From: Bryobacterales bacterium
GTDB taxonomy: Bacteria > Acidobacteriota > Terriglobia > Bryobacterales > UBA6623
Direction of reading: 5' to 3'
DNA length: 64,000 nt
Assembly (NCBI GenBank): GCA_965242705.1
Contig: OZ251486.1
Span: 64,580 to 128,579 of the forward strand
Part shown: positions 4,364 to 38,887 of the stretch, piece by piece
Numbering within the stretch: the stretch's first letter is position 1
How the letters are laid out: every line of letters starts with the position of its first letter
The notes under the pieces: generated by a model
What the model was told of the DNA's origin: nothing
The model's input: only the letters and a program-made list of their open reading frames with translations
Database searches by the model: none
Position numbers and translations under genes: made by a program

Positions 4364-4373
4364 GGCGGCCTCC

Positions 4374-4823: not shown

Positions 4824-4832
4824 TGATCCCTC

Positions 4833-13200: not shown

Positions 13201-13609
13201 AGAGGCGAGACTTGACGAGGGCTTCGCCGATGACCTGCTCGGGGCGGCCGCGCCGGCCGACCACGGGCAGGGTGCGCCAGCCGCTTTTTCGCGGCGGCAG
13301 CGCCTCGGCGAGCAGGGCTGCGGTTTCGTTGCCCAAGGCTTCCGCCGCGCGGCCGCGGACGGCCTCGTTTCCGTTGAGCGCCGCGCTCAGGGCAACGACG
13401 AGGCTCGACTTGCCGCCGCCGTAGGGGCCGGTCCAGGTGAACGCGCCCTGGCCGTTTTCGGCCGCGTGGCGGGCCATGTTTTCGAGCACGTCGGCGGACG
13501 ACTGGGGGCAGAGGAAGCCCTCGAGCGCGGCCGGATCGCGGAGATCGGCGTCGATGCGCACCGCGCGCCGGAAGCGCCGGGACACGCGCACCCGATCGGC
13601 AAGCGGCAT
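10211..13609 (-). CDS. sspC: large P-loop ATPase, SspC-like (DUF499/BrxC-type)
   Basis: 1132 aa. Walker A GPYGGGKSS and Walker B-like VVFLDEMGKF. Start overlaps the sspB-like stop by 1 nt. Contains an in-frame C22 run encoding Pro7. Confidence 0.7.
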   Translation of the reverse strand: MPLADRVRVSRRFRRAVRIDADLRDPAALEGFLCPQSSADVLENMARHAAENGQGAFTWTGPYGGGKSSLVVALSAALNGNEAVRGRAAEALGNETAALLAEALPPRKSGWRTLPVVGRRGRPEQVIGEALVKSRLLRGRIPRRWTEQGVLDALSRIAARNPRNCGGLVVFLDEMGKFLEAAARGEADIHLFQQMAELASRSNRRLIVVGILHQAFAEYAHRLSREMRGEWSKIQGRFVDLVVNAAPDEQIDILSRAVENQNVRRTKRLEKLAAGAAELASGQPDSVLADYLQECRPLHPLVSCLLGPVSRRRFGQNQRSIFGFLNSAEPQGFQDFLRGADGGDLYGPERLWDYLRVNLEPSILASPDGYRWALAADALRRCQDKGGGALHLRLLKTVALADMLKDRSGLPASPRLLRLALPDCSPPQIEKTLERLQQWRLIEFRKYEGAWAVFEGSDFDIDRAVEQARAETDETDFASLNALAGLQPVVAKRHYHETGALRWFDVGIVPLSGLEDAAAREPSRGALGSFFLAVPAQGETQAEAEAICRAVVRRNREWDIMVGTSRHGRSIPELTAELAAFERVRDETPELQGDRVAREQVRARVADAQAKLESELTRAFDGALWRSSLAPDAKPLSPAARNAIASDLADARFSQAPRLPNELLCRVKPSSSAAAARNALLRRMVGNEGEPRLGIEGFPAEGGLFDSLLDAAGLYRETPAGLRFAPPPPPPPHNRNLSPAWRAAEKYLQDNANRALPIAEIYDVWRRPPYGVKDGLLPVLAVAFLLSQRENLAFYRQGVFQAGVADLDIDYLVNDPADVQLRWMNLDDEARRLLSGLASAVRALDETNALRNLEPIDVARGLVAIHDRLPPWTGRTQRLSGAAKRIRRLFKQANDPNRLIFDDLPSVLDGETPDGSAPGGEKETARRIVTRVREGLEELQQAYPRMLARMKEMLLAELQVPNGSPAMLAELRGRAANVRGLAGDNRLEAFVVRLAQFKGSGEDLQGLASMAVNKPPAAWVDADIDRAAIELAAMAQRFLRAETFARVKGRPDKRHALAVVVGIDGRPTPLSGEFDLADRDRPKVRALRDRIDAALRGAGEAPRNVVLAALAELSARYLTDAAEPADREGAAP
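11415..11436. repeat. perfect 22-nt G homopolymer (C22 on the coding strand) inside the sspC-like gene
   Basis: Read directly: atgc + 22 g + caaagc. It encodes APPPPPPPH in the intact 1132-aa frame. Confidence 0.9.
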
Positions 13610-14556
13610 CAGGCGGCGCCCTTTCCGTTGCGCGCCGGATAGTCCGCGGCGAGGAAGTCGAGCGTTTCAGCGCCGGTTGCCTTGCGCTTGCGGGTCAATT
13701 GCTTCAATCCTGCGGCTTCCGACCAGTCGTAGAGGTCGCCGCTGACTTTCTGGAGATCGGCGAGCCGATCGGCCAGGTCGTTTTCTTCGAGCAGGAAGAC
13801 GCGGCCCGGAGAACCCGGCTCGTGGGCAAGGGCTTCGAAGGAAAGGGTATTGCGGGCGTCGGGGAAACGCGACCAGAAATCGGTCACCGCGTAGCAGAAT
13901 ACCCCGGCGCCGAGCGAAGGCTTGCCGCCGCGCATGAAGCGGAAACCGTCGCGCCGGCCGAGCGGACGGATCAAGCCGAGCTCGGTCAGCGGCGACTCGA
14001 GGGTATCTTCGCGGCTCGCCTTGCCCGAGGGCGTTTGGGCCGCGTAGGTGCGCACGAAGCAGGCCACGTCGTTTTTGAGGGTGGCGATTGAGAAACGCCA
14101 GCCGCGCTCCAGGGCGAGTTTTTCCAGTGTTGCGGTCAGCAGAGCGCGTTCGAAGAACAGGGCCGGGAAGTGGCTGAATGCCCAGAACCAAGTGGTTTTG
14201 CGCGGATTGCCGCAGAGGCGCCAATGGATCGTCCAGGCGGCGGCGGGGTTTTCCATCCAGGGGTCGAGGCCGCCGGGGGCGAACAGCCGCCGTCCGAGCG
14301 GGGTGGGCGCGGACGCCGCGGCGTCGATCACTCCGGCGGTCTCGGCCCAATGGCGTATCGAGGCGACCATGTTCTTGCCGACGCCGAAGCGGGCTATGGC
14401 GTCTTCGGCGGAGAAGACCGACTCGCCGAGGCCGGCGTCTTGCGCGGCCGCGGCGGCATCGACGGCTTTTTTGAGCCAGCCGTAGCGCAGGGGAAAGGTC
14501 TCGTGCCCGGAAAACCGGGGCTGGTAGCCGTTTTCGTAGAGGGGACCCCGCGGCAT
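13609..14556 (-). CDS. sspB: DUF4007-type protein, SspB-like
   Basis: 315 aa with N-terminal YQPRFSGHETFPLRYGWLKKAVD, which I recognise as the DUF4007 signature. First gene of the operon. Confidence 0.7.
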   Translation of the reverse strand: MPRGPLYENGYQPRFSGHETFPLRYGWLKKAVDAAAAAQDAGLGESVFSAEDAIARFGVGKNMVASIRHWAETAGVIDAAASAPTPLGRRLFAPGGLDPWMENPAAAWTIHWRLCGNPRKTTWFWAFSHFPALFFERALLTATLEKLALERGWRFSIATLKNDVACFVRTYAAQTPSGKASREDTLESPLTELGLIRPLGRRDGFRFMRGGKPSLGAGVFCYAVTDFWSRFPDARNTLSFEALAHEPGSPGRVFLLEENDLADRLADLQKVSGDLYDWSEAAGLKQLTRKRKATGAETLDFLAADYPARNGKGAA

Positions 14557-27297: not shown

Positions 27298-27503
27298 GGG
27301 CCGCGCTTCGCGCGGCAGGGGTTAGGGGTTAGGGGGAACCGCACGGCTTCAGTGAAAAGAGAGCTGAAGCCACCCGGTCGATTTCGGCGTCGCCGCGTCG
27401 AAAATAAGTGATCATTGCCGATCATTGGCGATCATTGCTGAACATTTGCGCATGAAGCGCTTCTTTTCGGCGCATGAACCCCGTCAGACTTGACGGCGGC
27501 GCA
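27298..27503 (-). repeat. copy 3 of the ~200-bp repeat family, in the divergent promoter region of island 2
   Basis: Same blocks as copy 2. Internal 10-bp tandem gatcattgcc/gatcattggc/gatcattgct at 27410-27439. Confidence 0.85.
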
Positions 27504-27647
27504 GGGACTGTGAGTCGGGGCGCGCTTTGCGAGGCAGTCGCGGGCCGCGGGTCGGGCGGCTGCGTCCGCCGTTGTTGCCTGCTTGTCGGGTTTTTTGCCG
27601 GGGATTTCTCCCGCTGCGCCGGCGGGTATCGGCTCTCGGAAACTGCT

Positions 27648-28937
27648 ATGCTGTCGGACAAGCGGGACCGCCTCAAAGTGAGCAGCCGCAACGGCATTCG
27701 AATCGAGCGCGAAGCGGGCAATGCCGTTTACCTGGACTATGCGGCGACGACGCCCGTTGACCGCCGGGTGATCGCGGCGATGAGCCGCTGTTTGGGGATT
27801 GACGGCGTGTTCGGCAACGCGGCGTCGCGGCCGCATCGGTTCGGACAGGAAGCCCGCGAGGCTGTGGAGAAAGCGCGGGAACAGGTGGCCGCGCTGCTCA
27901 ACGCCGACCCCGCCGAGATCGTCTGGACATCGGGCGCCACTGAGTCGATCAATCTGGCGATCAAGGGCGCGGCGCATGCCCGCGCCGGGCGGGGCAGGCA
28001 TATCGTCACTTCGGGACTGGAGCACAAGGCGGTTCTGGACTCGTGCGGCCAGTTAGCCCGCGAGGGGTTCGAGGTTACCCATCTGCGCCCCGGCGCGGAC
28101 GGGCTGATTTCGCCGGAGAGCGTTGAGGAAGCCCTGCGCGACGACACGATTCTCGTTTCGCTGCTGCATGTGAATAACGAAACCGGCGCCGTTACCGACA
28201 TCGAGGCGGTCGGGGAAGTTACGCGCTCCCGCGGAATTGCCTTTCACGTGGACGCCGCCCAGAGCGCGGCGCGTTTGCCGCTCGATATGCGTTCGGTTCA
28301 GGCCGACCTGGTTTCCCTCAGCGCGCACAAGATGTACGGGCCGAAGGGCGCCGGCGCGTTGTATGCGCGGCGCAGGCCGCGCGTCCGGCTGGAGCCGCTG
28401 ATCCACGGCGGCGGCCATGAGCAGGGGCTGCGCTCGGGGACATTGGCGACCCATCAGATCGTCGGCATGGGCGAGGCCGCAAGGCTGGCGCGCGAGCGCC
28501 GCGCCCGCGACGCGGTGGCGGCCGCCGCGCTCGACCGGCGCTTGCTCGATTCGCTGCTGGGCATGGAGCGCGTTTCCCTGAACGGCAGCGCAACGCGCCG
28601 CGCGCCGGGCATCGTCAATGCCGCCTTCGCCTGCGTCAAGAGCGAATCGCTGATGATGGTGTTGAAGGATGTTGCCGTTTCCTCCGGCTCGGCCTGCACA
28701 TCGTCGCGCATCGAGCCGTCGCACGTCTTGCAGGCGCTGGGCGTCCCCGGCGATCTTGCGGCTTGTTCGATCCGTTTCAGCCTGGGGCGCTTCACGACCG
28801 CACAGGAAATCGACTTCGCCGCGCGGCGCGTGCGGGAATCCGTCGAAGCCCTGCGCGAATTGTCGCCGCAATGGCAGGCGCCGGCGGGGCGCGGCGCGGA
28901 AACGGGTTTTCGGCATGAACAGGCGGTGACGGCATGA
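27648..28937 (+). CDS. dndA: class V cysteine desulfurase, DndA/IscS-like
   Basis: Internal ATG of ORF 27474..28937. [32 protein letters not shown] and SSGSACTS. Stop overlaps the dndC-like start (ATGA). Confidence 0.75.
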
Positions 28938-30124
28938 GCGAAGGCCTCGTTTCAATAGGCGTTGCGGGCGGGGCCGCGCGCGCCGCCAAGCGCATCCGCG
29001 ACACGGTGGATGTTCTGCGCACGGAATACCTGCGCGAAAATTTCGAGCCGTGGGTGTTGGCCTATTCGGGCGGCAAGGATTCGACGCTGCTGCTGCAACT
29101 GACTTGGGAGATGCTGCTCGATCTGCCCGACCCCGAACGCCGCCGCGAGATCTTTGTGGTCGGCAACGATACGCTCGTCGAATCGCCGCTGGTAATCCGC
29201 CATCTCAAAACCACGCTGAAGGCGATCGACGAGGCCGCCGCGTTGGACCGGCTGCCCATCGAGACGCGAATCACCAAGCCGCATATCGATCAGACTTTCT
29301 GGGTCAACGTGATCGGGCGCGGCTACATCCCGCCGACACGCAATTTCCGCTGGTGTACCGACCGGATGAAAATCATCCCCACGGGCGGGCTGCTGAAAAC
29401 GCTGGTGCGCCGGCACAAGAGCGCCGTGCTGCTGGTCGGGACGCGCAAGAGCGAGTCGCAGAACCGGCGCCGCAACATGGCCAAACACGGCGCTTCGGCA
29501 ACCGCGATGAACCCGCACGGCTCCATCGAAGGATGCCGCATGTTCGCGCCTCTGGCCGAGTTCGAAGACGATGACGTCTGGTTGACCCTGATGCAGCGCG
29601 ACCCGCCTTGGGGCGGCTCGCACGACGCCTTGATTACGCTGTACCGCAACGCCGGCGGCGGCGAATGTCCGCTGGTGCTGACCAAAGACGACGCGCCTTC
29701 GTGCGGGACGACCTCGCCCCGTTTCGGCTGCTGGACGTGTACCGTGATCAACAAAGACCGCAGCTTGCGCGGGTTGATCGACTCCGGGCACGAGGACGCG
29801 GAAATGTTCGAGCGGCTTTTCGATTTCCGCGAGTGGCTGATCGAGTTGCGCGAAAACGACGCCAACCGCAGCCGCGTCCGGCGCGACGGCAACACGTGGT
29901 ATCGAGCCGACGGCAGCTTGGTTATGGGGCCGTTCACGCTCGACGTGCGGCAACGGATACTCGACCGCCTGCATGCGCTGGAAAAAGAACTGGGGGAGAA
30001 GCTGATTTCCGCCTCAGAGTTGGAAGTGATCGATGACATCTGGTATAGGGATCGGATTCAGGAAGATTGCCGCATGGCCTTTCAGAATTCATATGCACTA
30101 GCAGATGAAGGAGCACTGACTTGA
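28934..30124 (+). CDS. dndC: DndC-like PAPS-reductase-fold sulfurtransferase
   Basis: 396 aa. [20 protein letters not shown]-loop, [10 protein letters not shown], and the DndC-type cysteine block [10 protein letters not shown]. Confidence 0.75.
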
Positions 30125-30126
30125 AA

Positions 30127-31911
30127 ATGCCCCGTCGTACCGTCATTGAGGCCAAGGCAACATTGTTCTCAGACCTGTTCCATCAGGGAAGGTTCTCTGT
30201 TCCCTGGCATCAGCGTTACTATGATTGGAAAGCAGAGGATGTCCAGGCGTTACTCTACGATATCGACGAAGCGGTTAAAGAAGACCGTGATTGCTATTTT
30301 CTGGGTGCGATCATGTTAGTGGAGGCCGGTAATGGATTGTGGGAAATCAACGACGGTCAACAGCGAATGGTGACGATATCGTTGATTTGCGCATCACTAT
30401 GCCGACGATTTGCACATAGCGCAGGCGGTTCGCAACGCGAAGGCCTTGCGCTGCGCATGTTATTCGATCTGGATGACAAAGAGACATGGATACTGGATAA
30501 TGCTGAAAATTATCCTCCCCGGATTTCTCCCCCGAGAAACGACGGAACACGGTATCGACAAATGATTCGAGGCAACACAATTGGAACCAATGGAATGCTC
30601 AATTCAGCGTGGGAAGAAATTGAAAAATTCTTTTCCCCGATGAGTATGGAAATGTTGGAAGAATATTTTGATTTTATTCTCGGAAAACTCGAAGTTGCGT
30701 GTTTGTATGTGCCGCGTCGAATTGATCCGAACGCGGTTTATGAAACAATCAATTCCCGGGGAAAGCAACTCGACGACTTGGATCGGATTCGCAATTTTCT
30801 ATACTCCTACTTCAATGCGGCCGAAGACTCCGAGAAGAGAATTTCGCTGCATGAAGACCTAGAGAGAATTCGTTTCCTGATTCGGAATACAGAGAAGGCG
30901 TCCGAATACATGCGCTGCCACTTGCAATGCAGGTACGGCTTTCTCCGCAAGGATAATTTCTATCGCGACGTGAGGGATGCTGTCCGCATCCAGAGAGATA
31001 AAAAATACGATTCAAATGATTCCCCAGCAGATTACGCATTCATACTGACCAAACAAATTGCACAGCCCGAGTCTCTGGATCTCTTCCGCACAATGACGGC
31101 AACAAATCCGAATCCGGAGTTCATCCGGGCATTCGAGACTGCTTCAGGAACAAGTAAATCACCGAGAAGTTTGGCGGTTTTTATTAGGGAGTTGCAAAGA
31201 TACAAAGTCACTCAACCTTTGGTTTTTGCCATCTTGACTCGATACATCCGCGAGCCGGATAAACGTAGAAAAAAAGCGGTTGCGAGACTGGCTAACAAAA
31301 ACTTGAATCGCTTGGCGACATTTGTTCTCAGAACAGCATTTGTTGCACCAAAGTTCGAGCCGTCGCACTTCGAGACCGAGTTTTCCAATTACGCCAAAAA
31401 TATCATGAGCGCCACCGAATTTCCCGATGATGAATTCGCCACCTTCTTGAGGGAGTGCGACCGGTCGGAGTATGGGATATTGGATGATTCCAGATTCCAA
31501 GATGCCATGATCGAAGCAAGAATGACAGGAGATAGAAAGATAAAGCAGTTCTTGCTCGGCATCAACAGCATCCGGCAACGCGACGTACGGTTATTGAACC
31601 AGCGCTTTTGTACTATCGAGCATATCCTTCCGAAATCCCCACAACATTGGGGCGGCTGGATCGGATTCAAAGATGTTGACGGGACCGATTGGTTTCAGAG
31701 AATTGGAAACCTGACACTCATGGGGCCGGAAGACAATAAACCGGGTGATAAGTACAACGCTTCTTTTGCGAAGAAACGCGCGAGCTATGGGGAGAGCAGT
31801 CTTGCTATTACGCGGGAGTTGAAAGATTATGATGATTGGACTCCAGCCCGCATTGAATCAAGGCAACGGGATATGGTGAAACGAGCAACGATTGTCTGGA
31901 AGTTCGTTTGA
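30127..31911 (+). CDS. DUF262-DUF1524 (GmrSD/SspE-family) protein: ParB-like NTPase N-domain plus His-Me nuclease C-domain
   Basis: About 594 aa. N-terminal WHQRYYDW and INDGQQRMVT (DGQQR). C-terminal IEHILPKSP...IGNLTLMGPEDNKPGDK. The ATG lies 2 nt after the dndC-like stop; the ORF track starts at TTG 30121. Confidence 0.8.
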   Translation: MPRRTVIEAKATLFSDLFHQGRFSVPWHQRYYDWKAEDVQALLYDIDEAVKEDRDCYFLGAIMLVEAGNGLWEINDGQQRMVTISLICASLCRRFAHSAGGSQREGLALRMLFDLDDKETWILDNAENYPPRISPPRNDGTRYRQMIRGNTIGTNGMLNSAWEEIEKFFSPMSMEMLEEYFDFILGKLEVACLYVPRRIDPNAVYETINSRGKQLDDLDRIRNFLYSYFNAAEDSEKRISLHEDLERIRFLIRNTEKASEYMRCHLQCRYGFLRKDNFYRDVRDAVRIQRDKKYDSNDSPADYAFILTKQIAQPESLDLFRTMTATNPNPEFIRAFETASGTSKSPRSLAVFIRELQRYKVTQPLVFAILTRYIREPDKRRKKAVARLANKNLNRLATFVLRTAFVAPKFEPSHFETEFSNYAKNIMSATEFPDDEFATFLRECDRSEYGILDDSRFQDAMIEARMTGDRKIKQFLLGINSIRQRDVRLLNQRFCTIEHILPKSPQHWGGWIGFKDVDGTDWFQRIGNLTLMGPEDNKPGDKYNASFAKKRASYGESSLAITRELKDYDDWTPARIESRQRDMVKRATIVWKFV

Positions 31912-33329
31912 TACCTGATGCAGCAGAACTGCGGCGTCTCGCCGAAGAACAGCTTGGCGTTCCGGCGACGCTCCACGACTATCAATGGGAAGGGGTTGCA
32001 TTCCTGTATCGATCCCCGGCTGCTCTGCTTGCCGATGAGATGGGCTTGGGGAAAACCGTCCAGACTGCGACCGCGCTGGCGCTTCTTTTGAACGGGCGGA
32101 ATGAAATACGCCGGGTTTTGATCGTCGCCCCGGCGTCTCTGACGACAAACTGGATGGCGGAGCTTGAAACCTGGGCGCCGTCGCTGACTGTGCGGCGCGT
32201 TCAGGGAACCGTACGCGATCGGGAAGCGTTTTATCTGCTGCCGATTCCGGTTCTCGTGAGCTCCTACGAGCAGATTCGGCAAGACGGCCTGGACCGTATC
32301 CCGTCGGGCGCCTTCGATCTCGTCGTGCTCGATGAAGCTCAGCGAATCAAAAACAGAGACTCCACTACCGCGTTGGCCTGCCGGCTGCTGCCGCGGAAGC
32401 GCGCTTGGGCGCTATCGGCTACGCCCCTGGAAAACGACGAGGCCGATGCCGCATCGATTCTCGGATTCCTCGACCCATCGATCCGACGAGAGCTTTCCGG
32501 GACGCACCTAGTCAGGAAGTTGGAGTCGATGATGCTTCGGCGGCGGAAGGCCGATGTTCGAGCCGAACTGCCGCCAGTTATCCTTCAGGACATGAAACTC
32601 GACCTCTCGAAGCCGCAGAGGGAGAAATACGATGAGTTGTGGTTGAACCGGGCGGCGACCGTCCGGGCAAACGCAGGTGACGGAGACGCCAGCACCGCCT
32701 TGCTCGGGATGATCACGCGGCTGAAGATCATTTGCAATCTCGATGCGTCCGCGAACGCCTCGTCGAAATTGGCCGCCCTCAGGACAGTCAGCGAGAGTGC
32801 GGGGAAATTTGCTCGAATTCTTGTTTTTTCGCAGTTTGTTGAAACGCTGCGGTGGATTTCTGCTAGAATTGGTCTGGCGCACGATCTCGTGACAGGGTCG
32901 ATGCCGCTTGCCGAACGGCAGGCGTCCATGGACCGGTTCAAGAGCGGGCGGGCTCCGCGGTTGTTGCTGGTGTCCCTTCGGGCTGGCGGCGTGGGGTTGA
33001 ATCTGGGAGAGGCGACGCATATCGTGATGTTCGATAGATGGTGGAACCCCGCCGTTGAGATCCAGGCAATCTATCGAGCCCACCGCTTTGAACGCGATGA
33101 GCCGTTGCACGTCGTTCGTTTTCTGGTGACCGATTCGATTGAGGAACATATCGCGGAGATACTGGAACGGAAGGAGTATCTTTTCGATAAAGTCATTGAG
33201 TCCGCTCAGACGACTGCCCCCCGGTTCACAAAGAACGAGTTGATGCGGGTTCTGAATCTCTCGGTAGGAGACATCCTTCCGATCCCAAACGAAGTTAAGG
33301 AGACCCAAAACCATGGCAAAGATTGTTGA
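31908..33329 (+). CDS. minimal SNF2-family helicase/translocase
   Basis: 473 aa. LADEMGLGKTVQ (I), LVVLDEAQRIKN (II), ALSATPLEN (III) and GGVGLNLGEATHIVMFDRWWNPAVEIQAIYRAHR (V-VI). TTG start overlaps the upstream stop. Confidence 0.85.
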   Translation: MIPDAAELRRLAEEQLGVPATLHDYQWEGVAFLYRSPAALLADEMGLGKTVQTATALALLLNGRNEIRRVLIVAPASLTTNWMAELETWAPSLTVRRVQGTVRDREAFYLLPIPVLVSSYEQIRQDGLDRIPSGAFDLVVLDEAQRIKNRDSTTALACRLLPRKRAWALSATPLENDEADAASILGFLDPSIRRELSGTHLVRKLESMMLRRRKADVRAELPPVILQDMKLDLSKPQREKYDELWLNRAATVRANAGDGDASTALLGMITRLKIICNLDASANASSKLAALRTVSESAGKFARILVFSQFVETLRWISARIGLAHDLVTGSMPLAERQASMDRFKSGRAPRLLLVSLRAGGVGLNLGEATHIVMFDRWWNPAVEIQAIYRAHRFERDEPLHVVRFLVTDSIEEHIAEILERKEYLFDKVIESAQTTAPRFTKNELMRVLNLSVGDILPIPNEVKETQNHGKDC

Positions 33330-34158
33330 ATACAAGGATATTCCGCTTGATGATTTGACGATCGGCAAGGGGCAAGTGCGCACTCAGGATGCCAGCAAAG
33401 GTATTGATGATCTGGCCAGAAGCATTGAGGCGCAAGGCTTGCTTCAACCGATTGTCGTCTGCCCTGCAAGCGAAACCGGAAAATGGGAAATTCTCACGGG
33501 TCAGCGACGGTTTTTGGCGCATAAGATGCTGAACAAAGAAAGCATCGCAGCAGCCGTTCTCGATGAGCGCGCTGAGGAAGCCGAGGCCAAGGCTATCTCG
33601 ATTACCGAAAATCTGATTCGACGCAAACTCTCCGGGAAAGACCTTACGGACGCAATCGTGTTCCTGTACAACATTTATGGGACCATTAAGGGTGTGACTG
33701 AAGCCACGGGATTGCCTTATCGGGAAGTACGGCATCACGTAAGATATCCGCGACTGTTGCCCGAATTGAAAGAAATGGTCAATGACGGCAGGCTCGATGT
33801 CAATGTTGCGGTAAAGGCGCAGGATGCCGCTACCGCAGGGGATTATGGGGATCCCGATCCCGAGGTCGCAATTAACGCAATTAAATTTGCCGAAGAAATG
33901 ACTTCAATGACGGGGCCTCAACGCAAGAAGCTTGCCGAAGAACGCAAAAAGGACCCTGAAAAACCGGTGGATGATGCGATCGAAGCTGCGAAATCCGGGG
34001 GGAAGATAACCCAGATAGTCGCGACAGTGACTCAGGACACGCACACTGCCGTCCGACGTTTTGCAAAGCAGGAAGGGGCCACCCAGGACGAGGCAGCGGT
34101 TATGCTCATTGAAGAAGCGCTGGTCAATCACGGTTTGCTGAATTCCGAGATACCATAG
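33313..34158 (+). CDS. ParB/Srx N-terminal domain protein
   Basis: 281 aa. QGLLQPIVV (box II), ILTGQRRFLA (GxxRxxA-type box) and ITENLIRR. Overlaps the SNF2 gene by 17 nt. Confidence 0.8.
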   Translation: MAKIVEYKDIPLDDLTIGKGQVRTQDASKGIDDLARSIEAQGLLQPIVVCPASETGKWEILTGQRRFLAHKMLNKESIAAAVLDERAEEAEAKAISITENLIRRKLSGKDLTDAIVFLYNIYGTIKGVTEATGLPYREVRHHVRYPRLLPELKEMVNDGRLDVNVAVKAQDAATAGDYGDPDPEVAINAIKFAEEMTSMTGPQRKKLAEERKKDPEKPVDDAIEAAKSGGKITQIVATVTQDTHTAVRRFAKQEGATQDEAAVMLIEEALVNHGLLNSEIP

Positions 34159-34884
34159 ATGCTGGCTGGTTTGAACCCTCTGGAACTTGGACGTCTGCGG
34201 ATGTCCGTGGGCTATGGGAGGCACAAGAGAGGCCGTCCGCTTTCTCCTATTGAGGTCGGTTTGCTGTTCGATCAAGCCCGCAGGGCCGGCGACTCGCTCA
34301 GGGATTGCGCACAGGCGGTTCAGCTTGACGGAACAAGACAAATCGCTCGGTTTTTGCGAATTGTCGAATTACCCCAAGACATTCAGCATTTGATTGGTTG
34401 GGGAACCCCCAAGGGTGCCATCGGCTTTTCGGCGGCGTTCGAGTTGGCGCGCCTCCAAGATGAGAAAGATCAGCGCACTACTGCCGAAGCGGTGCTGAAA
34501 AATGGTTTGGACAGCAAAGAAGTCCGACAAGTCGTGCAGCTTCGGGCACGGTCGGGGCAGGCTATTGATGCGTGCGTTCAGGAAGTCTTGGGCATGCGTC
34601 CGGTGATCGAGAAACGCTATGTCTTTATTGGGTCAATCGTTGATGGGAACATCGGGGAAATACTCGGCAAACTCAGACAAGCAGAGAGAGATTCGATTCT
34701 GAAGTCGTGTATCGAAAGCCTTGAACTTCGAGGAGCATCGGGACGGCTGGGCGAACGGTTTTTCACGCTGGTAGGAGACGAACGTTTTAACTCATCAATG
34801 AACAGTATCGGCAAAGAGAATATCGAGAACCAGCTTCGAGATCATATTGAGAAGGTTATTGCGAATGTCGGATATCGTTGTTGA
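34159..34884 (+). CDS. hypothetical protein resembling the HTH/central region of ParB without the N-terminal ParB box
   Basis: 241 aa. LSPIEVGLLF...LRIVELPQDIQHLI...GFSAAFELARL follows the ParB HTH-region spacing. ATG immediately follows the upstream TAG. Confidence 0.4.
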   Translation: MLAGLNPLELGRLRMSVGYGRHKRGRPLSPIEVGLLFDQARRAGDSLRDCAQAVQLDGTRQIARFLRIVELPQDIQHLIGWGTPKGAIGFSAAFELARLQDEKDQRTTAEAVLKNGLDSKEVRQVVQLRARSGQAIDACVQEVLGMRPVIEKRYVFIGSIVDGNIGEILGKLRQAERDSILKSCIESLELRGASGRLGERFFTLVGDERFNSSMNSIGKENIENQLRDHIEKVIANVGYRC

Positions 34885-35893
34885 TGTTTTTGCAAGCGGC
34901 GCCGTCCGCCTCGGTTCGCAAGTCGTGTGCGATGGTTTTGCCGATGGATATCCTCTCCGTGTCCAGACGCATATCCACGCCGACCACATGGCCGATTTCG
35001 ACAGAAGCAAGGGTTTTCAAGATATCCTGATGAGTCCGGAAACCCATGAACTTCTGATTGCGGAACGCAATGCGGACCTTGAGTACCGCGACAACCTCCT
35101 GCGGGTCGGGCGCGGCGACGAGCGAATGCTTGAAGACGGCTCAAAGCTCTTCTTCCTGCCGTCCAATCACATGCTTGGCTCGCGCCAAGTTGCGCTGGAA
35201 TTACCTGACGGCCGGCGAATCGGCTATTCGAGCGACTTCGGATGGCCTCTTGATGAGGTCATCAAGGTCGATCAGCTTGTCGTGGACAGCACTTACGGCA
35301 GCCCCCGAAGCGTCCGCCGCTACACTCAGGCCGAGGCGGAAGAATGCCTGTTCGATCTCGTATGCGAGCGATTGCGGCATGGCCCCGTGCATGTCTGCGC
35401 TTACAGGGGAACGATTGAGCGAGTTTTGCAAGTACTCGGGGACAATGTAGGGGTTCCGATTCTGGCTACCGAGCGGCTCATGCGCGAAGTAGGGGTTTAT
35501 CAAAAGTACGGGTTCGCCGCCGGGAGCCTGGATAAAATCGATTCGGACAAAGGCTTGGCGGCCATGAAGGAGAGGTCGTATGTTCGGCTGTATTCGAAGG
35601 GTGACGGGTTTGGCAACGAACCGATCGGCGGAACCCGCATTACTTGCAGCGCGTTCATGGTGGATGCGGATCATCCATTGAAGACCTATTCGGACCGAAC
35701 ATACAGCGTGGCGTTATCCAATCACGCGGACTTCGATGAAACGCTGGCGTATGTTCAGGCCACCGGCGCCAAACGGGTGGTTACAGACAACACACGGACC
35801 TACGGCGTAGAGTTGGCCATCGCCATCAACAACCGTTTTGCGGGCGTTCAGGCCGAGCCTTCCACAAACAAACCCGGCCCGCGCTGGAATTAG
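34865..35893 (+). CDS. metallo-beta-lactamase-fold hydrolase (possible nuclease)
   Basis: About 342 aa from ATG 34865 (the ORF track starts at TTG 34847). HxHxDH motif VQTHIHADHM and a later SNHAD. Overlaps the upstream gene by 20 nt. Confidence 0.7.
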   Translation: MSDIVVDVFASGAVRLGSQVVCDGFADGYPLRVQTHIHADHMADFDRSKGFQDILMSPETHELLIAERNADLEYRDNLLRVGRGDERMLEDGSKLFFLPSNHMLGSRQVALELPDGRRIGYSSDFGWPLDEVIKVDQLVVDSTYGSPRSVRRYTQAEAEECLFDLVCERLRHGPVHVCAYRGTIERVLQVLGDNVGVPILATERLMREVGVYQKYGFAAGSLDKIDSDKGLAAMKERSYVRLYSKGDGFGNEPIGGTRITCSAFMVDADHPLKTYSDRTYSVALSNHADFDETLAYVQATGAKRVVTDNTRTYGVELAIAINNRFAGVQAEPSTNKPGPRWN

Positions 35894-36058: not shown

Positions 36059-38887
36059 ATGAGAGTTACGGCTTGGGTTCGTTTCTTTTTCGGTTCGGCT
36101 GCGGTCTTTTTCGGTTCGGCTGCGGCGGCTTGGGCGCAGACGCCGTTGACTGCGGAGGGCGTGGTTTCGTTCCGCGTGCGCTTCGGGCTTACCGATAGCG
36201 CGCAGACGTCATGGGACGGCGCGGTTACCGTTTCCAACGGCGAGCTGCTCGGGCTGCGCGATTGGCGTCCGCGTCCCGAGAACGCCGTCGAGGCGCCGAA
36301 CAAGTGGCGGTTTTCGACGCTCAAGGGCGTGAATTACCGGTATCCGGCGTACTACATCATTCCCAACACGGGGGTTGTGGAGTACTACTGGACTCCCGGG
36401 GTGATCGTCGACGTGAAGGCGGAGGCCGGGACGCGGGTCAACGTGCGCACCGACCAGGGGCGGTTTTCGTTCAACGCGAGGGACATTCCTCTGGCCGCGC
36501 CGAAGACGTTTCTGGACGGCGGCGCCGTCGTGGAGCGGGTTGCGCCGGCGGAGAAGCTGACAGGAGAGGAGTACGAGGACGATTTCGCGGCGATTCTGGG
36601 CGGCGAAGACGGCGAGATATGGGTTGCCTGGATTGCCTACAAGGCGGGGGCGAACCACGTGCTGGCGCGGCGGTTCGACGGCGCCGAGTGGGGCGGGGCG
36701 ATGGAAATCACCGAGGGGCCGAGCGACGCCTATCTGGTGAAGATGGGGCGGGACAAGGGCGGCGACCCGTGGTTCGTCTGGGCGAACCAGACGGGCGGCA
36801 ATTTCGATCTCTACGGGCGGGCGCTGAAGGGCGGCTCGCTGACGCCCGTTGTGCGCCTGAGCGACAGTCCCCAGCCCGACGCCTTTCACAACTTGGCGAC
36901 GGACTCGAACGGCGGCCTGTGGCTTGTCTGGCAGGGGTTCCGCGGCGGCAAGTCGGACATTTTCGCGCGGCGTTACGACGGCGGGCGCTGGGGGGACGCG
37001 CAGAAGGTTTCGACTTCGCCGGCGAACGATTGGGAGCCGGTCATCGCCGCCGGGCGCAGGGGAGAGATTCATGTCGCCTGGGACAGTTACGACAAGGGCG
37101 ATTACGACGTGCTGCTGCGCACCTGGGACGGGGCGAAGTGGGGCGAGGTCGAGGCGATCGCCGGCACGAGGCTTTACGAAGCCCACGTTTCGCTGCAGGT
37201 GGATGGGGAGAACCGGTTGTGGGCGGCGTGGAACGAGAGCGGCATGAACTGGGGCAAGGACACGGGGGCGCTGCTCAGCGTGGAAGGCACGCGGCTCTAC
37301 CATTACCGGCGCATGCGGGTCGCGGCGCGGGACGGCCGCGGGGGCTGGCGGGTTCCGGTTGCGGACATCAACGATTCGCTGCCGGCGCATATGGACGACC
37401 GGCACAACGATTTTCCGCAGCTTGCGCTGGACGGGCGGGGGAGGGTGTGGCTTTTCGGGCGCTACCGCACGATTCGGCAGCGCGACATGCCCGACGAGAC
37501 GCCGCTGCACCGCGCCTGTTGGGAGATTTGGGGTTCGACGCTGGACGGCGATCGCTGGACGGTTCCGCTGGAGTTGCCGTTCAGCCAGAGCCGCCAGGAC
37601 GTGCGCTGGGGCGTCGCGCCGGACGGCAAGGGCAATCTGTTTGCCGCGTGGGCGATGGACAACCGCGATTTCGAGGATTTTCTGTACACGCATGAGGACG
37701 TGTACGCGGCGAAGCTGCCCAATCTGGAGCGGAAGACCGCGGCGCCGGTGCTGAGGGCGCGCGCGGAGCCAACGCTGTACTACCACGACCTGGCGCCCAC
37801 CGAGACCGCCGATCTGGAGCGGCTGCGGACGTATGAGATTCGTTCCGGCGGCAAGGTTTACAAGATTTACCGCGGCGACACGCACCGGCACACCGAGTTT
37901 TCGATGGACGGCAACAACGACGGCTCGCTGCTGCAAACCTACCGCTATGCGATCGACGCGGCAGGCCTCGACTATTTGCTGGCCAGCGAGCACAACCACT
38001 TGGGCGGCCCGGACAACGAATACGTCAACTGGCTGCTGCAGCAGACGGTGGACGTGTTTTCGGTGTCGGGGGCGTTCCAGCCGTATTACGGGTACGAGCG
38101 CTCGATCAGCTTTCCCGACGGGCACAGGAATATCCTGTTCGCCAAGCGGGGCAACCCGACGCTGCCCATGGCGCCGGAAGAGCGCAACCACGAGAAGGGC
38201 GCGGGGCGGCTTTACGATTACCTGAAGAAGCACAAGGGCATCGCCATTTCGCACACGCCGGCGACGCGCATGGGCACGGACTGGCGGGACAACGACCCGG
38301 ACGTGGAGCCGCTGGTGGAGATTTTTCAGGGCGATCGCGTTTCCGCCGAATACGAAGGCGCGCCGCTGGCGGCGAACAGCGAGAATCCGGCGTCGCAGGT
38401 GGGCGGCTTCCAGCCGGCGGGCTACGTGTGGAACGCTTGGGCGAAGGGATACAAGCTGGGCGTGCAGGCGGCTTCGGATCACCTTTCGACGCACTATTCT
38501 TACGCCTGCACGATAGCGGAGGAGTTTACCCGCGAAGGCATGATCGAGGCCATGAAGCGCCGCCACAGTTACGGCGCGACGGACAACATCATCCTCGATT
38601 ACCGGCTGCGCACCGCCGACGGGAAGGAGTATCTGCAGGGCGATATCGTCACGGTCGAGGGCGGGTTCACGCTGGCGGTCAAGGTGATCGGCACGACGCA
38701 TCTGCGCCAGATCGACATCATCAAGAACCAGGAGTTTTTGCACAACCGGCAGAATCTCGCGCAGGAGACGAGTTTCGATTTCACTGACAACGACAAGCAG
38801 CCGGGCGAGGATTTCTATTACGTGCGCGTGGTGCAGGACGACAACAACGTAGCTTGGTCGTCGCCGATCTGGGTCACGACGCGGTGA
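36059..38887 (+). CDS. large secreted protein with a C-terminal PHP/CehA-McbA-type metallohydrolase-like domain
   Basis: Internal ATG of ORF 35918..38887 gives the signal peptide MRVTAWVRFFFGSAAVFFGSAAAAWAQ. W/G-rich repeats in the N-terminal half. GDTHRHTEFS and LASEHNH metal motifs. Confidence 0.55.
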   Translation: MRVTAWVRFFFGSAAVFFGSAAAAWAQTPLTAEGVVSFRVRFGLTDSAQTSWDGAVTVSNGELLGLRDWRPRPENAVEAPNKWRFSTLKGVNYRYPAYYIIPNTGVVEYYWTPGVIVDVKAEAGTRVNVRTDQGRFSFNARDIPLAAPKTFLDGGAVVERVAPAEKLTGEEYEDDFAAILGGEDGEIWVAWIAYKAGANHVLARRFDGAEWGGAMEITEGPSDAYLVKMGRDKGGDPWFVWANQTGGNFDLYGRALKGGSLTPVVRLSDSPQPDAFHNLATDSNGGLWLVWQGFRGGKSDIFARRYDGGRWGDAQKVSTSPANDWEPVIAAGRRGEIHVAWDSYDKGDYDVLLRTWDGAKWGEVEAIAGTRLYEAHVSLQVDGENRLWAAWNESGMNWGKDTGALLSVEGTRLYHYRRMRVAARDGRGGWRVPVADINDSLPAHMDDRHNDFPQLALDGRGRVWLFGRYRTIRQRDMPDETPLHRACWEIWGSTLDGDRWTVPLELPFSQSRQDVRWGVAPDGKGNLFAAWAMDNRDFEDFLYTHEDVYAAKLPNLERKTAAPVLRARAEPTLYYHDLAPTETADLERLRTYEIRSGGKVYKIYRGDTHRHTEFSMDGNNDGSLLQTYRYAIDAAGLDYLLASEHNHLGGPDNEYVNWLLQQTVDVFSVSGAFQPYYGYERSISFPDGHRNILFAKRGNPTLPMAPEERNHEKGAGRLYDYLKKHKGIAISHTPATRMGTDWRDNDPDVEPLVEIFQGDRVSAEYEGAPLAANSENPASQVGGFQPAGYVWNAWAKGYKLGVQAASDHLSTHYSYACTIAEEFTREGMIEAMKRRHSYGATDNIILDYRLRTADGKEYLQGDIVTVEGGFTLAVKVIGTTHLRQIDIIKNQEFLHNRQNLAQETSFDFTDNDKQPGEDFYYVRVVQDDNNVAWSSPIWVTTR

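What the first reader, a model, noticed from the sequence alone, without database searches (positions are those of the whole stretch)
31908..35893. AT-rich SNF2 / ParB / ParB-HTH-like / MBL four-gene sub-module as a candidate new effector set
A minimal 473-aa SNF2 motor carries little beyond the two RecA lobes. It is followed by a bona fide ParB/Srx N-domain protein (GLLQPIVV, TGQRRF). Next comes a protein that looks like the ParB HTH region alone, then an HxHxDH MBL-fold enzyme. ParB/Srx folds recur across this window (DGQHR, DGQQR, GQRR). This suggests nucleotide-gated DNA clamps or nickases acting with a translocase and a nuclease. The combination is not one I can map to a named system.
Basis: inference. 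Interest (0 to 1): 0.75.

Follow-up and report, generated by a model that had tools for sequence, protein, structure and literature searches.

The report
DndC defence cassette without DndD/E
The four genes are real. They are the back half of a seven-gene operon, spread by gene transfer among mostly sponge-associated bacteria, in which the DNA-sulfur-modifying enzyme DndC has lost its usual helpers DndD/DndE and sits instead with a GmrSD-type nuclease, an SNF2 motor, a ParB clamp, a ParB-like DNA binder and a beta-CASP nuclease; I found no description of this variant of phosphorothioate-based defence.

Summary
SNF2 (31908-33329), ParB (33313-34158), a ParB-HTH-only protein (34159-34884) and an MBL enzyme (34865-35893, shown here to be beta-CASP) are intact, overlapping genes with conserved catalytic motifs.

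They are not a free-standing set. They form the 3' half of a translationally coupled cassette: IscS, DndC, GmrSD(DndI/SspE-like), SNF2, ParB, HTH, beta-CASP (27648-35893).

- **Conservation:** the cassette recurs, collinear, in 42 of 50 genome loci from at least seven phyla. All are MAGs, and many carry sponge-symbiont names.
- **Displacement:** DndC relatives at or below 53% identity are followed by DndD(+DndE). Cassette-clade DndC (61% or more) never is.
- **Two modules:** pairwise-identity correlations separate [DndC+GmrSD] from [SNF2+ParB+HTH+beta-CASP], as do the loci where the cassette is split.
- **Distant variants** keep ParB-HTH-beta-CASP next to a PP-loop enzyme. One contig fuses HTH to the nuclease.

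PADLOC has no model for the HTH or beta-CASP proteins, and I found no paper describing the combination.

Best reading: a phosphorothioate-type modification/restriction system in which a ParB-based scanning and nuclease module replaces DndD/E. Whether that module helps writing or does the restricting is unresolved. It is a new variant of a known kind.

The parts
27648..28937 (+). IscS/DndA/SspA-type cysteine desulfurase, the sulfur donor. The ORF is open from 27474; the likely start is ATG 27648.
   Evidence: NF010611 IscS 554 bits (cut-off 548); PADLOC SspA 511 and DndA 504 bits. The profile match begins at ORF residue 84. An in-frame ATG at 27648 gives MLSDK...[11 protein letters not shown]. 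Its stop overlaps the DndC start by 4 nt. It is adjacent to DndC in 36 of 50 related loci.
28934..30124 (+). DndC, a PP-loop / 4Fe-4S DNA phosphorothioation sulfurtransferase (396 aa).
   Evidence: TIGR03183 DNA_S_dndC 328.9 bits (cut-off 290.4); PADLOC DndC 370 bits. The SGGKDST PP-loop and Cys141/201/245/257/266/269 are conserved in 48 sequences. It is 51% identical to Mesorhizobium dndC, which sits in a canonical IscS-DndC-DndD-DndE operon.
30121..31911 (+). GmrSD-type DUF262 (ParB/Srx-fold NTPase) + DUF1524 (HNH) protein with DndI/SspE-like architecture (596 aa). It is the most AT-rich and most variable gene of the cassette.
   Evidence: GmrSD_N 78.6 and GmrSD_C 77.7 bits. PADLOC HEC-06 214 bits, Dnd-range 'Orf5' 158 bits, SspE 51 bits. 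PDB: a DUF262 protein 9jfl and the SspE HNH region. INDGQQR and EH.LP...GN...N are conserved. GC 0.47. Mean pairwise identity is 0.47, and rho with DndC is 0.80.
31908..33329 (+). Minimal SNF2-family dsDNA translocase (473 aa).
   Evidence: SNF2-rel_dom 157 bits, Helicase_C 72 bits. GLGKT and DEAQRIKN are conserved. Best defence-library hits are DpdE 200 bits and ZorD 196 bits, helicase core only. It is absent in the two SNF2-less genomes, L009 (also sampled as L002-L004) and L042, and frameshifted in L029 and L035.
33313..34158 (+). ParB/Noc-type protein (281 aa): N-terminal NTP-binding ParB domain, HTH, and a distinct C-terminal region.
   Evidence: ParB_N 54.7 bits; TIGR00180 68 bits. PDB Noc 7ol9 E 1.2e-11 over residues 6-156. 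Boxes GLLQPIVVC / GQRRFLAH / ITENLIRR are conserved, with the Q of GQRR invariant. The C-terminal RHH-like hit is only E 0.029.
34159..34884 (+). ParB paralogue (241 aa) that lacks the NTPase domain: a ParB-type HTH DNA-binding domain plus an uncharacterised C-terminal alpha/beta domain. It is the signature gene of the cassette.
   Evidence: HTH_ParB 24.4 bits. Profile vs PDB: Spo0J E 0.006. AF2 pLDDT 88; Foldseek Noc/ParB DNA-binding domain E~2e-3 over about 110-125 residues. 531 homologues, unnamed or 'hypothetical protein'. 198 clusters at 50% identity with E<=1e-30.
34865..35893 (+). Beta-CASP metallo-beta-lactamase-fold nuclease (342 aa; ORF open from TTG 34847).
   Evidence: Lactamase_B_2 21 bits; TIGR04122 ligase-associated exonuclease 52.6 bits. 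PDB SNM1A E 7e-4. AF2 pLDDT 87; Foldseek CPSF73/Artemis/SNM1A/Apollo/RNase J E~1e-14. H36, H38, D40, H41, H102, D124, D141, H176 and H287 are invariant in 24 sequences. It is fused to the HTH protein in L144.

Best explanation
The four genes are half of a single seven-gene, horizontally mobile operon that is a DndC-based (phosphorothioate-type) DNA modification and restriction system.

Shown here:
- IscS and a bona fide DndC are translationally coupled to GmrSD, SNF2, ParB, HTH and beta-CASP.
- This clade of DndC has lost DndD and DndE, which follow every other DndC sampled. The five other genes sit in their place.
- The operon has two co-evolving halves: [DndC+GmrSD] and [SNF2+ParB+HTH+beta-CASP].

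Inferred mechanism:
1. IscS passes sulfur to DndC, which writes phosphorothioate marks on host DNA.
2. ParB, whose NTP pocket is conserved, loads on DNA as a nucleotide-gated clamp.
3. Its NTPase-less paralogue supplies a second DNA-binding domain and tethers the beta-CASP nuclease.
4. The optional SNF2 motor drives the complex along DNA.
5. This platform takes over the ATP-driven DNA-scanning role of DndD/DndE for DndC, and also delivers a nuclease to DNA that lacks the mark.
6. GmrSD acts like DndI/SspE: a PT-sensing NTPase-nickase that is released from marked self DNA and nicks unmarked foreign DNA.

I put about 0.85 on 'one PT-linked functional system'. I put about 0.45 on this particular division of labour.
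For: 1. One operon. Gene junctions overlap or abut: 4, 4, 4 and 17 nt, then abutting, then 20 nt.
2. Co-conservation.
   - A genome scan seeded on the 241-aa protein gave 50 loci.
   - 47 carry DndC and 42 carry all six non-IscS genes at 80% coverage or more, collinear in all but the three split loci (L032, L049, L050) and contiguous except for insertions in L035 and L053. 36 also carry IscS.
   - Identities are 55-75% across Acidobacteriota, Chloroflexota, Thermodesulfobacteriota, Binatia, Gamma- and Alphaproteobacteria, Gemmatimonadota and Bacteroidota/Rhodothermales.
3. Displacement.
   - A metagenome scan seeded on DndC gave 80 loci.
   - The two at 68% identity or more carry GmrSD-SNF2-ParB-HTH-MBL.
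   - All 78 at 53% or less lack them. 65 show DndD (usually plus DndE) directly downstream. Of the other 13, 12 are cut by a contig end about 0.1-1.2 kb past dndC; L128 is the exception.
   - No DndD or DndE lies within 10 kb in any of the 54 cassette loci.
4. DndC is genuine. It scores above the TIGR03183 cut-off, has the PP-loop and cluster cysteines, and is 51% identical to a DndC in a canonical DndCDE operon.
5. GmrSD has the DUF262+DUF1524 architecture of DndI and SspE, which are PT-sensing NTPase/nickases (PMC11662687).
6. Catalytic motifs are conserved in all components.
7. Distant variants (HTH 32-40% identical) keep the linkage in other orders.
   - L140 is SNF2-ParB-HTH-MBL-DndC.
   - L146 is GmrSD-SNF2-ParB-HTH-MBL.
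   - L144 is ParB, an HTH::beta-CASP fusion, then a PAPS-reductase-family gene.
8. Precedent. A ParB-like ATPase (DpdB) assists a DNA-modifying enzyme in Dpd systems, and an SNF2 protein (DpdE) belongs to that system (PMC12839542).
9. Horn et al. reported that PT genes are enriched in sponge metagenomes 'even though not functionally complete' (PMC5099237). That is what a DndD/E-less cassette would look like.
Against: - No chemistry or phenotype is available. PT in these genomes is unproven.
- DndD/E, or SspB/C, could be encoded elsewhere in the genomes. This window itself carries SspBCD-PbeABCD 13 kb away. I could not scan whole MAGs.
- Co-evolution ties DndC most tightly to GmrSD (rho 0.80) and only weakly to ParB/HTH (0.26-0.29). 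This fits the rival in which the four genes are purely a restriction arm better than it fits my division of labour. These correlations are also confounded by linkage.
- SNF2 plus a nuclease is typical of restriction modules.
- The trio ParB-HTH-MBL occurs between transposases with no DndC in a 7-kb contig (L141-143).
- The HTH::nuclease fusion rests on one Logan contig and could be an indel.
- No parS-like site was found.
- The beta-CASP substrate, DNA or RNA, is undetermined.
Confidence: 0.5

Rival explanations
1. Two-arm system. IscS-DndC-GmrSD is a self-sufficient writer (plus reader), in which the DUF262-HNH protein itself targets or nicks DNA for DndC. SNF2-ParB-HTH-beta-CASP is purely the restriction/effector arm, functionally analogous to DndFGH or PbeABCD, and plays no part in writing the mark.
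For: - DndC-GmrSD rho is 0.80, against 0.26-0.49 between DndC and the four genes. The latter is similar to the writer-restriction correlation reported for DndCD-DndFGH (0.58, PMC6459918).
- The split loci L049 and L050 place IscS-DndC-GmrSD and SNF2-ParB-HTH-MBL on divergent units.
- Translocase plus nuclease is the usual make-up of restriction arms. The SNF2's best defence-library hits are DpdE, ZorD and DrmD.
- The HTH::nuclease fusion reads naturally as a DNA-targeted effector.
Against: - DUF262-DUF1524 proteins characterised so far (SspE, DndI) are readers/effectors, not writer subunits.
- L032 places SNF2 with the DndC unit.
- L144 and L026 lack GmrSD yet keep the PP-loop enzyme with HTH (and ParB, MBL in L144).
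- The literature holds that DndC needs an NTPase/DNA-binding pair (PMC10853773).
Confidence: 0.27
2. The four genes are an independent, PT-unrelated defence system that merely shares a defence island with DndC-GmrSD.
For: - Module-like co-evolution and occasional separate transcription units.
- The trio without DndC in L141-143.
- The window is a defence-rich region with a second PT system.
Against: - 47 of 49 informative genome loci have DndC within a few kb, in fixed order, with overlapping stop/start codons.
- The linkage survives gene-order permutation in distant subfamilies (L140, L144, L146).
- The reciprocal scan from DndC finds the cassette genes only, and always, with the cassette clade of DndC.
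Confidence: 0.08
3. The module is a DNA-repair or maintenance unit for sulfur-modified DNA, not an anti-invader weapon. An SNM1-like 5'-3' exonuclease plus an SNF2 remodeller and ParB would process breaks that arise at oxidised PT sites.
For: - The beta-CASP protein's only sequence-level PDB hit is the cross-link-repair exonuclease SNM1A. Its best NCBIfam hit is the ligase-associated DNA-damage-response exonuclease.
- PT DNA is known to be prone to oxidative cleavage (my own knowledge).
Against: - Canonical Dnd and Ssp systems need no such repair module.
- The cassette carries a GmrSD-type restriction nuclease.
- Low GC, spread across phyla and a rapidly diverging GmrSD are hallmarks of defence islands.
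Confidence: 0.07
4. ParB and its paralogue are a chromosome/plasmid partition or nucleoid-occlusion pair unrelated to the neighbouring enzymes.
For: The best solved-structure matches of the 281-aa protein are Noc and Spo0J/ParB.
Against: - There is no ParA/Walker ATPase partner and no parS-like repeat.
- The setting is chromosomal, between housekeeping genes. No homologue was found on 72,556 plasmids for the MBL partner, and none in viral contigs.
- The genes are strictly embedded in the DndC cassette.
Confidence: 0.02

Closest known systems
DndABCDE phosphorothioation system with DndI (IscS-DndBCDE-DndI) or DndFGH
   Same: An IscS/DndA desulfurase and a true DndC (51% identical to a DndC in a canonical operon). 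A DUF262+DUF1524 protein with DndI architecture. Operon logic of a mark-writer plus nuclease(s).
   Different: No DndD (SMC/ABC-like ATPase), no DndE, no DndB and no DndFGH in the cassette. SNF2, ParB, a ParB-HTH paralogue and a beta-CASP nuclease occupy the DndD-DndE position instead. The Dnd survey (PMC10853773) treats DndD/CxC+DndE as the universal core.
SspABCD-SspE
   Same: The same logic of desulfurase, PP-loop enzyme, NTPase, DNA-binding/nicking protein and a DUF262-HNH PT sensor (SspE). It shows that the DndD/E pair can be replaced by unrelated proteins (SspC AAA+, SspB).
   Different: The PP-loop enzyme here is DndC-type, not SspD (PADLOC SspD only 26 bits). There is no SspB (DUF4007) or SspC in the cassette. 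A genuine SspBCD set lies elsewhere in the same window (9372-14556).
Dpd 7-deazaguanine DNA modification/restriction system
   Same: It uses a ParB-like NTPase (DpdB) to help a DNA-modifying enzyme act on DNA, and includes an SNF2-family protein (DpdE, the best PADLOC hit of the window's SNF2 core).
   Different: Different chemistry (a TGT-type base exchange, not sulfur). DpdE is over 850 aa with extra domains. There is no beta-CASP nuclease and no NTPase-less ParB paralogue.
ParB/Noc/KorB CTP-dependent DNA sliding clamps
   Same: The 281-aa protein has the ParB N-domain boxes and the adjoining HTH, and aligns with Noc/Spo0J over about 150 residues.
   Different: No ParA, and no identified parS. 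The GERR box reads GQRR in all 47 orthologues. The C-terminal region differs. It is paired with a paralogue that lacks the NTPase domain.
Beta-CASP nucleases (SNM1A/Apollo/Artemis; CPSF73/RNase J; Cas14 of type VII CRISPR)
   Same: MBL motifs 1-4 and beta-CASP motifs A-C are all present. The size (342 aa) and fold match the SNM1/Artemis catalytic core (TM about 0.65).
   Different: Sequence identity is only 13-19%. The substrate is unknown. The context (ParB partners, DndC) is unprecedented among the matches.
PbeABCD
   Same: A PT-associated multi-gene restriction module that includes a helicase.
   Different: PbeA is a PLD+SF2 helicase and PbeC an SMC-like ATPase. None of the four genes matches a Pbe model. 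A real PbeA/PbeC pair is present elsewhere in the window (4833-9384).

Membership tests
Dnd phosphorothioate modification system (DndABCDE) | Cysteine desulfurase (DndA or IscS) | tested here: met
   NF010611 554 bits (cut-off 548); PADLOC DndA 504 bits.
Dnd phosphorothioate modification system (DndABCDE) | DndC PP-loop / 4Fe-4S sulfurtransferase | tested here: met
   TIGR03183 328.9 bits against a cut-off of 290.4. SGGKDST and six conserved Cys.
Dnd phosphorothioate modification system (DndABCDE) | DndD SMC/ABC-like ATPase next to DndC | tested here: not met
   tblastn with two DndD sequences finds nothing within 10 kb in 54 cassette loci. The only hit in the window is the PbeC-like gene 22 kb away, at 18% identity. 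DndD is present after 65 of 78 non-cassette DndC genes.
Dnd phosphorothioate modification system (DndABCDE) | DndE (double RHH DNA-binding protein) | tested here: not met
   No tblastn hit in any cassette locus. There is no room for it, because the genes overlap.
Dnd phosphorothioate modification system (DndABCDE) | Phosphorothioate linkages actually present in the DNA | not testable with these tools
   Needs LC-MS/MS, iodine cleavage or polymerase kinetics.
DndI / SspE-type PT-sensing effectors | N-terminal DUF262 (DGQxR NTPase) plus C-terminal DUF1524 HNH nuclease | tested here: met
   GmrSD_N 78.6 and GmrSD_C 77.7 bits. INDGQQR and the HNH residues are conserved. PADLOC Orf5 158 bits and SspE 51 bits. 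PDB SspE HNH region.
DndI / SspE-type PT-sensing effectors | NTPase stimulated by PT-DNA, and nicking of unmodified DNA | not testable with these tools
   A biochemical property (PMC11662687).
ParB/Srx CTPase clamp family | ParB N-domain with conserved NTP-pocket boxes, followed by an HTH | tested here: met
   ParB_N 54.7 bits. Alignment to Noc over residues 6-156. The boxes are conserved, with GERR reading GQRR.
ParB/Srx CTPase clamp family | ParABS partition context (ParA partner, parS sites) | tested here: not met
   No ParA in the cassette. No shared palindrome or k-mer outside coding motifs.
ParB/Srx CTPase clamp family | CTP binding/hydrolysis and clamp closure | not testable with these tools
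   Needs biochemistry.
Beta-CASP metallo-beta-lactamase nucleases | MBL motifs (HxHxDH, H, D) plus beta-CASP motifs A (D/E), B (H), C (H/V), and the fold | tested here: met
   H36/H38/D40/H41, H102, D124, D141, H176 and H287 are invariant. Foldseek hits CPSF73/Artemis/SNM1A at E~1e-14 with probability 1.00.
SNF2 family translocases | SNF2-type helicase motifs in two RecA lobes | tested here: met
   PF00176 157 bits and PF00271 72 bits. GLGKT and DEAQ are conserved.
Named multi-gene restriction modules (DndFGH, PbeABCD, SspFGH, Zorya, DISARM, Dpd) | Full-length match of the four proteins to the system's component models | tested here: not met
   PADLOC: the SNF2 matches only the helicase core of DpdE/ZorD/DrmD. 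ParB has only weak PD-Lambda-5 hits (E 1e-4). HTH and MBL have no hits.

The most novel reading that the evidence does not exclude
This is a third architecture for DNA phosphorothioation. A nucleotide-gated ParB clamp and its NTPase-less paralogue bring the DndC sulfurtransferase to DNA, in place of an SMC-like DndD or an ORC-like SspC ATPase. The same platform carries a beta-CASP nuclease that polices unmarked DNA. The cassette is a self-contained mobile unit that has swept through phylogenetically unrelated members of sponge and coral microbiomes.
Probability: 0.3. Interest if true: 0.85.

Novelty: new variant of a known kind. Interest (0 to 1): 0.7.

Why it matters
- **A challenge to the accepted core.** Phosphorothioate systems are thought to need DndD/DndE (or SspB/SspC) alongside the sulfurtransferase. 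A widespread DndC clade that has discarded both and always travels with ParB, a ParB-HTH paralogue, a beta-CASP nuclease and usually an SNF2 motor would show a new way to couple a DNA-backbone-modifying enzyme to DNA.
- **New roles for two families.** It would extend ParB-type clamps and beta-CASP nucleases into modification-based immunity.
- **An old puzzle.** It offers an explanation for the observation that sponge metagenomes are rich in 'incomplete' Dnd systems.
- **A testable unit.** The operon is compact (about 8.2 kb) and self-contained, and can be tested in E. coli.
- **Annotation.** These genes are currently named 'hypothetical protein' or 'putative mRNA 3-end processing factor'. Defence-system finders would report, at most, an orphan DndC and a lone GmrSD.

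Tried and rejected
- **Pbe from memory.** I first recalled PbeABCD as a DUF4007/PAPS-reductase/SNF2/ParB system. Reading the paper showed this was wrong: PbeA is a PLD-helicase and PbeC is SMC-like. Pbe matches other genes in the window, not the finding.
- **parS-like site.** 12- and 14-mers shared across 43 cassettes all fall in conserved coding motifs of IscS, DndC and other cassette genes. No shared palindrome was found.
- **Signals in the window.** Promoter and terminator scans were no better than shuffles. The repeats are unremarkable apart from a local GATCATTG x3 upstream of IscS, which is absent from other loci.
- **RHH fold in the ParB C-terminus (a possible DndE analogue).** Pfam RHH_6 reaches only E 0.029, below threshold, and a family-profile search of PDB was negative. 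Left as unproven.
- **Phage or plasmid carriage.** No relative of the beta-CASP protein in IMG/VR or in PLSDB plasmids.
- **Enterobacterial plasmid PAPS-reductase-family genes.** At 25-30% identity to DndC they are a different family with a different context, so I dropped them.
- **Truncated DndC.** The 396-aa DndC covers only 378 of 481 profile positions. Short DndCs (355-375 aa) also occur in canonical DndCDE operons, so this is not a defect.
- **Origin of the window.** An exact-sequence look-up of the window's own HTH protein found nothing on record.

Full report
**1. What is there**

The window is about 64% GC. From 30.1 to 35.9 kb GC falls to 0.47-0.58.

On the + strand, seven ORFs are packed with overlapping or abutting stops and starts:
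- a cysteine desulfurase (ORF 27474-28937, likely start ATG 27648)
- DndC (28934-30124)
- a GmrSD-type protein (30121-31911)
- SNF2 (31908-33329)
- ParB (33313-34158)
- a 241-aa protein (34159-34884)
- an MBL-fold protein (ORF from 34847; homologues and gene calls put the start at ATG 34865, 342 aa)

The four genes of the finding are therefore real, and their domain assignments hold.
- **SNF2:** PF00176 157 bits plus PF00271 72 bits and nothing else. It aligns with the SsoRad54 catalytic core and with ISWI/Chd1 motors.
- **ParB:** ParB_N 54.7 bits and TIGR00180 68 bits. It aligns to Noc/Spo0J through N-domain and HTH.
- **241-aa protein:** HTH_ParB just above threshold (24.4 against 22.6 bits). 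A family profile hits Spo0J (E 0.006). A confident AF2 model (pLDDT 88) has an N-terminal half that matches the ParB/Noc DNA-binding domain and a C-terminal alpha/beta domain that matches nothing convincingly.
- **MBL protein:** an AF2 model (pLDDT 87) hits CPSF73, Artemis, SNM1A, Apollo and RNase J at E~1e-14. All MBL and beta-CASP motif residues are invariant in 24 homologues.

**2. The neighbours change the picture**
- The gene two upstream of SNF2 is a bona fide DndC. It scores TIGR03183 328.9 bits against a cut-off of 290.4, has the SGGKDST PP-loop and conserved cluster cysteines. It is 51% identical to a Mesorhizobium dndC that lies in a textbook IscS-DndC-DndD-DndE operon.
- It is preceded by an IscS/DndA/SspA-type desulfurase.
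- It is followed by a DUF262+DUF1524 protein. That is the architecture of DndI and SspE, which are PT-sensing NTPase/nickases (PMC11662687). It hits the Dnd-range 'Orf5' and SspE models of PADLOC and the SspE HNH region in PDB.
- PADLOC has no model matching the 241-aa or the beta-CASP protein.

**3. Co-conservation**

The 241-aa protein has 531 homologues. The 120 best are at least 59% identical and about 240 aa long, and those carrying any name are 'hypothetical protein'.

A scan of one genome per GTDB species with their alignment returned 50 loci, all of them MAGs.
- They come from Acidobacteriota (Bryobacterales, Vicinamibacterales, Thermoanaerobaculia), Dehalococcoidia, Thermodesulfobacteriota, Binatia, Gamma- and Alphaproteobacteria, Gemmatimonadota and Rhodothermales/Bacteroidota.
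- Several have sponge-symbiont names, such as Ca. Poriferihabitaceae with the genera Poriferihabitans and Spongiihabitans.
- From my own knowledge, the bin prefixes APA_, RHO3_, COS1_ and Plut_ denote sponge and coral metagenomes.

tblastn with the seven window proteins gave these counts:
- DndC in 47 of 50 loci
- all six non-IscS genes at 80% coverage or more in 42, collinear apart from the three split loci (L032, L049, L050), with insertions inside the cassette in L035 and L053
- IscS in 36

The window's closest relatives are two Bryobacterales MAGs (75-82% identity) with the same flanking host genes, so the cassette is stably inherited in that lineage. The 55-75% identity across phyla indicates horizontal spread. 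No relative occurs in IMG/VR viral contigs or PLSDB plasmids.

**4. Displacement of DndD/DndE**

A reciprocal metagenome scan seeded on cassette-clade DndC returned 80 loci.
- Only two are 68% identical or more, and both carry GmrSD-SNF2-ParB-HTH-MBL.
- The other 78 are 53% identical or less, and none has those genes.
- Of these 78, 65 have DndD, usually followed by DndE, directly after DndC. Of the remaining 13, 12 are cut by the contig end about 0.1-1.2 kb past dndC. The exception is L128, which has a DUF262-like ORF.

Conversely, neither DndD nor DndE is detectable within 10 kb in any of the 54 cassette loci.

The comparative survey of Dnd systems regards the DndD/CxC-DndE pair as the universal core, without which the modification apparatus 'would be nonfunctional' (PMC10853773). 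It therefore anchored on those genes and would not have seen this clade. Horn et al. noted that PT genes are enriched in sponge metagenomes 'even though not functionally complete' (PMC5099237). The cassette is a plausible reason.

**5. Internal structure**

Across 39 non-redundant cassettes, Spearman correlations of pairwise identities define two modules.

| Pair | rho |
|---|---|
| DndC-GmrSD | 0.80 |
| SNF2-HTH | 0.74 |
| HTH-MBL | 0.65 |
| SNF2-MBL | 0.61 |
| ParB-HTH | 0.58 |
| between the two modules | 0.26-0.49 |

- GmrSD is the most divergent component (mean identity 0.47 against about 0.63) and the most AT-rich (0.47).
- Gene order supports the same split. In L049 and L050, GmrSD-DndC-IscS and SNF2-ParB-HTH-MBL are divergent units. 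In L032, SNF2 goes with the DndC unit.
- SNF2 is dispensable. It is missing in L009 (the same genome was also fetched as L002-L004) and L042, and frameshifted in L029 and L035.

These correlations are confounded by linkage and shared history, so I treat them as suggestive only.

**6. More distant relatives**

A profile search of 1.84 billion cluster representatives found 198 clusters at E<=1e-30 and 432 at E<=1e-10, so the family is broader than the sponge clade.

Context look-ups of members only 32-40% identical in HTH showed:
- SNF2-ParB-HTH-MBL followed by DndC (L140)
- GmrSD-SNF2-ParB-HTH-MBL (L146)
- ParB followed by a single 582-aa ORF that fuses HTH to the beta-CASP domain, then a 250-aa PAPS-reductase-family gene (L144)
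- a ParB-HTH-MBL trio between transposases with no DndC in 7 kb (L141-143)

The linkage to a PP-loop enzyme thus survives permutation of gene order. The fusion is a single contig and could be an indel. If real, it argues that the HTH protein is the DNA-binding subunit of the nuclease.

A reduced variant, L026, has IscS-DndC-(SAM methyltransferase+HNH)-HTH. L040 is a decayed copy next to an IS605 TnpB.

**7. Mechanism**

Shown:
- one operon
- a true DndC with its sulfur donor
- loss of DndD/E
- intact catalytic motifs in the GmrSD NTPase and HNH, the SNF2 ATPase, the ParB NTP pocket and the beta-CASP metal site

Inferred:
- IscS and DndC write phosphorothioate on host DNA.
- ParB loads as a nucleotide-gated clamp.
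- The paralogue tethers the beta-CASP nuclease.
- SNF2 adds translocation.
- This platform supplies the NTP-driven DNA-scanning function that DndD/E (or SspC/SspB) provide elsewhere, and delivers a nuclease to unmarked DNA.
- GmrSD acts as a DndI/SspE-like PT sensor and nickase.

A ParB-like ATPase helping a DNA-modifying enzyme has a precedent in DpdB (PMC12839542).

The ParB GERR box is invariantly GQRR. From memory, the equivalent glutamate matters for CTP hydrolysis in M. xanthus ParB, so this clamp may hydrolyse slowly. That is speculation.

The main rival is that the four genes are purely a restriction arm (a DndFGH analogue) and that GmrSD is DndC's DNA-handling partner. The co-evolution data fit this rival somewhat better. 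The distant variants that lack GmrSD fit it worse. I cannot separate the two readings with sequence alone.

My probabilities:
- one PT-linked system, about 0.85
- my division of labour, about 0.45
- the pure restriction-arm reading, about 0.27
- an independent co-located system, a repair module or a partition function are minor

**8. Comparison and novelty**

The cassette works like a Dnd or Ssp modification-restriction system. It passes the membership tests for DndA/IscS, DndC and a DndI/SspE-type effector. It fails two defining features of DndABCDE, namely DndD and DndE, and it matches no named restriction module.

Full-text searches for the gene combination found nothing. The two most relevant comparative papers do not describe it.

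I class it as a new variant of a known kind. It is interesting to specialists because it contradicts the assumed universality of the DndD/E core, recruits ParB and beta-CASP proteins into PT biology, and appears to be a habitat-linked mobile defence unit.

**9. Limits**
- There are no functional data.
- The whole genomes were not scanned for unlinked DndD/E.
- The window itself holds a second PT system (SspBCD-PbeABCD-DndB-like, 2885-14556). That system lacks its own SspA and might share the cassette's desulfurase.
- Habitat attribution rests on record titles and taxon names.

Noticed in passing
window 2885-14556 (- strand): A second phosphorothioate-type island: SspB (13609-14556), SspC (10211-13609, PADLOC 1244 bits), SspD (9372-10214), PbeA (7189-9384, 641 bits), PbeC (4833-6947), two small ORFs in the PbeB/PbeD positions, and a DGQHR DndB-like protein (2885-4363). 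It has no SspA of its own; the nearest desulfurase is the one in the DndC cassette 13 kb away.
   Followed up: partly
L144:656-2404: One Logan contig encodes the ParB-HTH protein and the beta-CASP nuclease as a single 582-aa ORF. A ParB gene lies upstream and a 250-aa PAPS-reductase-family gene (25% identical to DndC) downstream. It may be a Rosetta-stone fusion, or an assembly indel at the normally overlapping gene junction.
   Followed up: partly
L026:5323-11778: A Vicinamibacterales MAG has a reduced variant: IscS, DndC, a 588-aa SAM-methyltransferase+HNH fusion in the GmrSD position, then the HTH protein. No SNF2, ParB or recognisable beta-CASP gene is present.
   Followed up: partly
L141-L143 (JGI metagenome contigs): A distant ParB-HTH-beta-CASP trio (ParB and MBL 47-52% identical, HTH 32%) sits between DDE transposases, next to a divergent 330-aa protein with no Pfam match. 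No DndC is visible on the 5-7 kb contigs.
   Followed up: no
L040:7654-10953: A decayed copy: an IS605-type TnpB and a WYL-domain regulator lie directly upstream of the HTH gene, and only an 83-residue stub of the beta-CASP gene remains.
   Followed up: partly
window 27409-27438: Three direct GATCATTG(C/G) repeats lie in the roughly 370-nt non-coding gap upstream of the likely IscS start (ATG 27648). This may be an operator. The motif is absent from all other fetched loci.
   Followed up: partly
window 36084-36125: A perfect tandem duplication of a 21-nt unit (TCTTTTTCGGTTCGGCTGCGG) lies in the 5' part of the 989-aa DUF3604 ORF just downstream of the cassette.
   Followed up: no
window 27474-35893: Base composition inside the one operon is very uneven: IscS 0.68, DndC 0.62, GmrSD 0.47, SNF2 0.58, ParB 0.52, HTH 0.53, MBL 0.57. 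This hints that the cassette was assembled from, or has exchanged, modules of different origin. GmrSD is also the fastest-diverging gene.
   Followed up: partly
L020:4618-5736; L029 and L035 SNF2 regions: Some cassette copies carry an internal stop in DndC (L020) or a split SNF2 reading frame (L029, L035). These are either pseudogenisation or MAG consensus errors.
   Followed up: no
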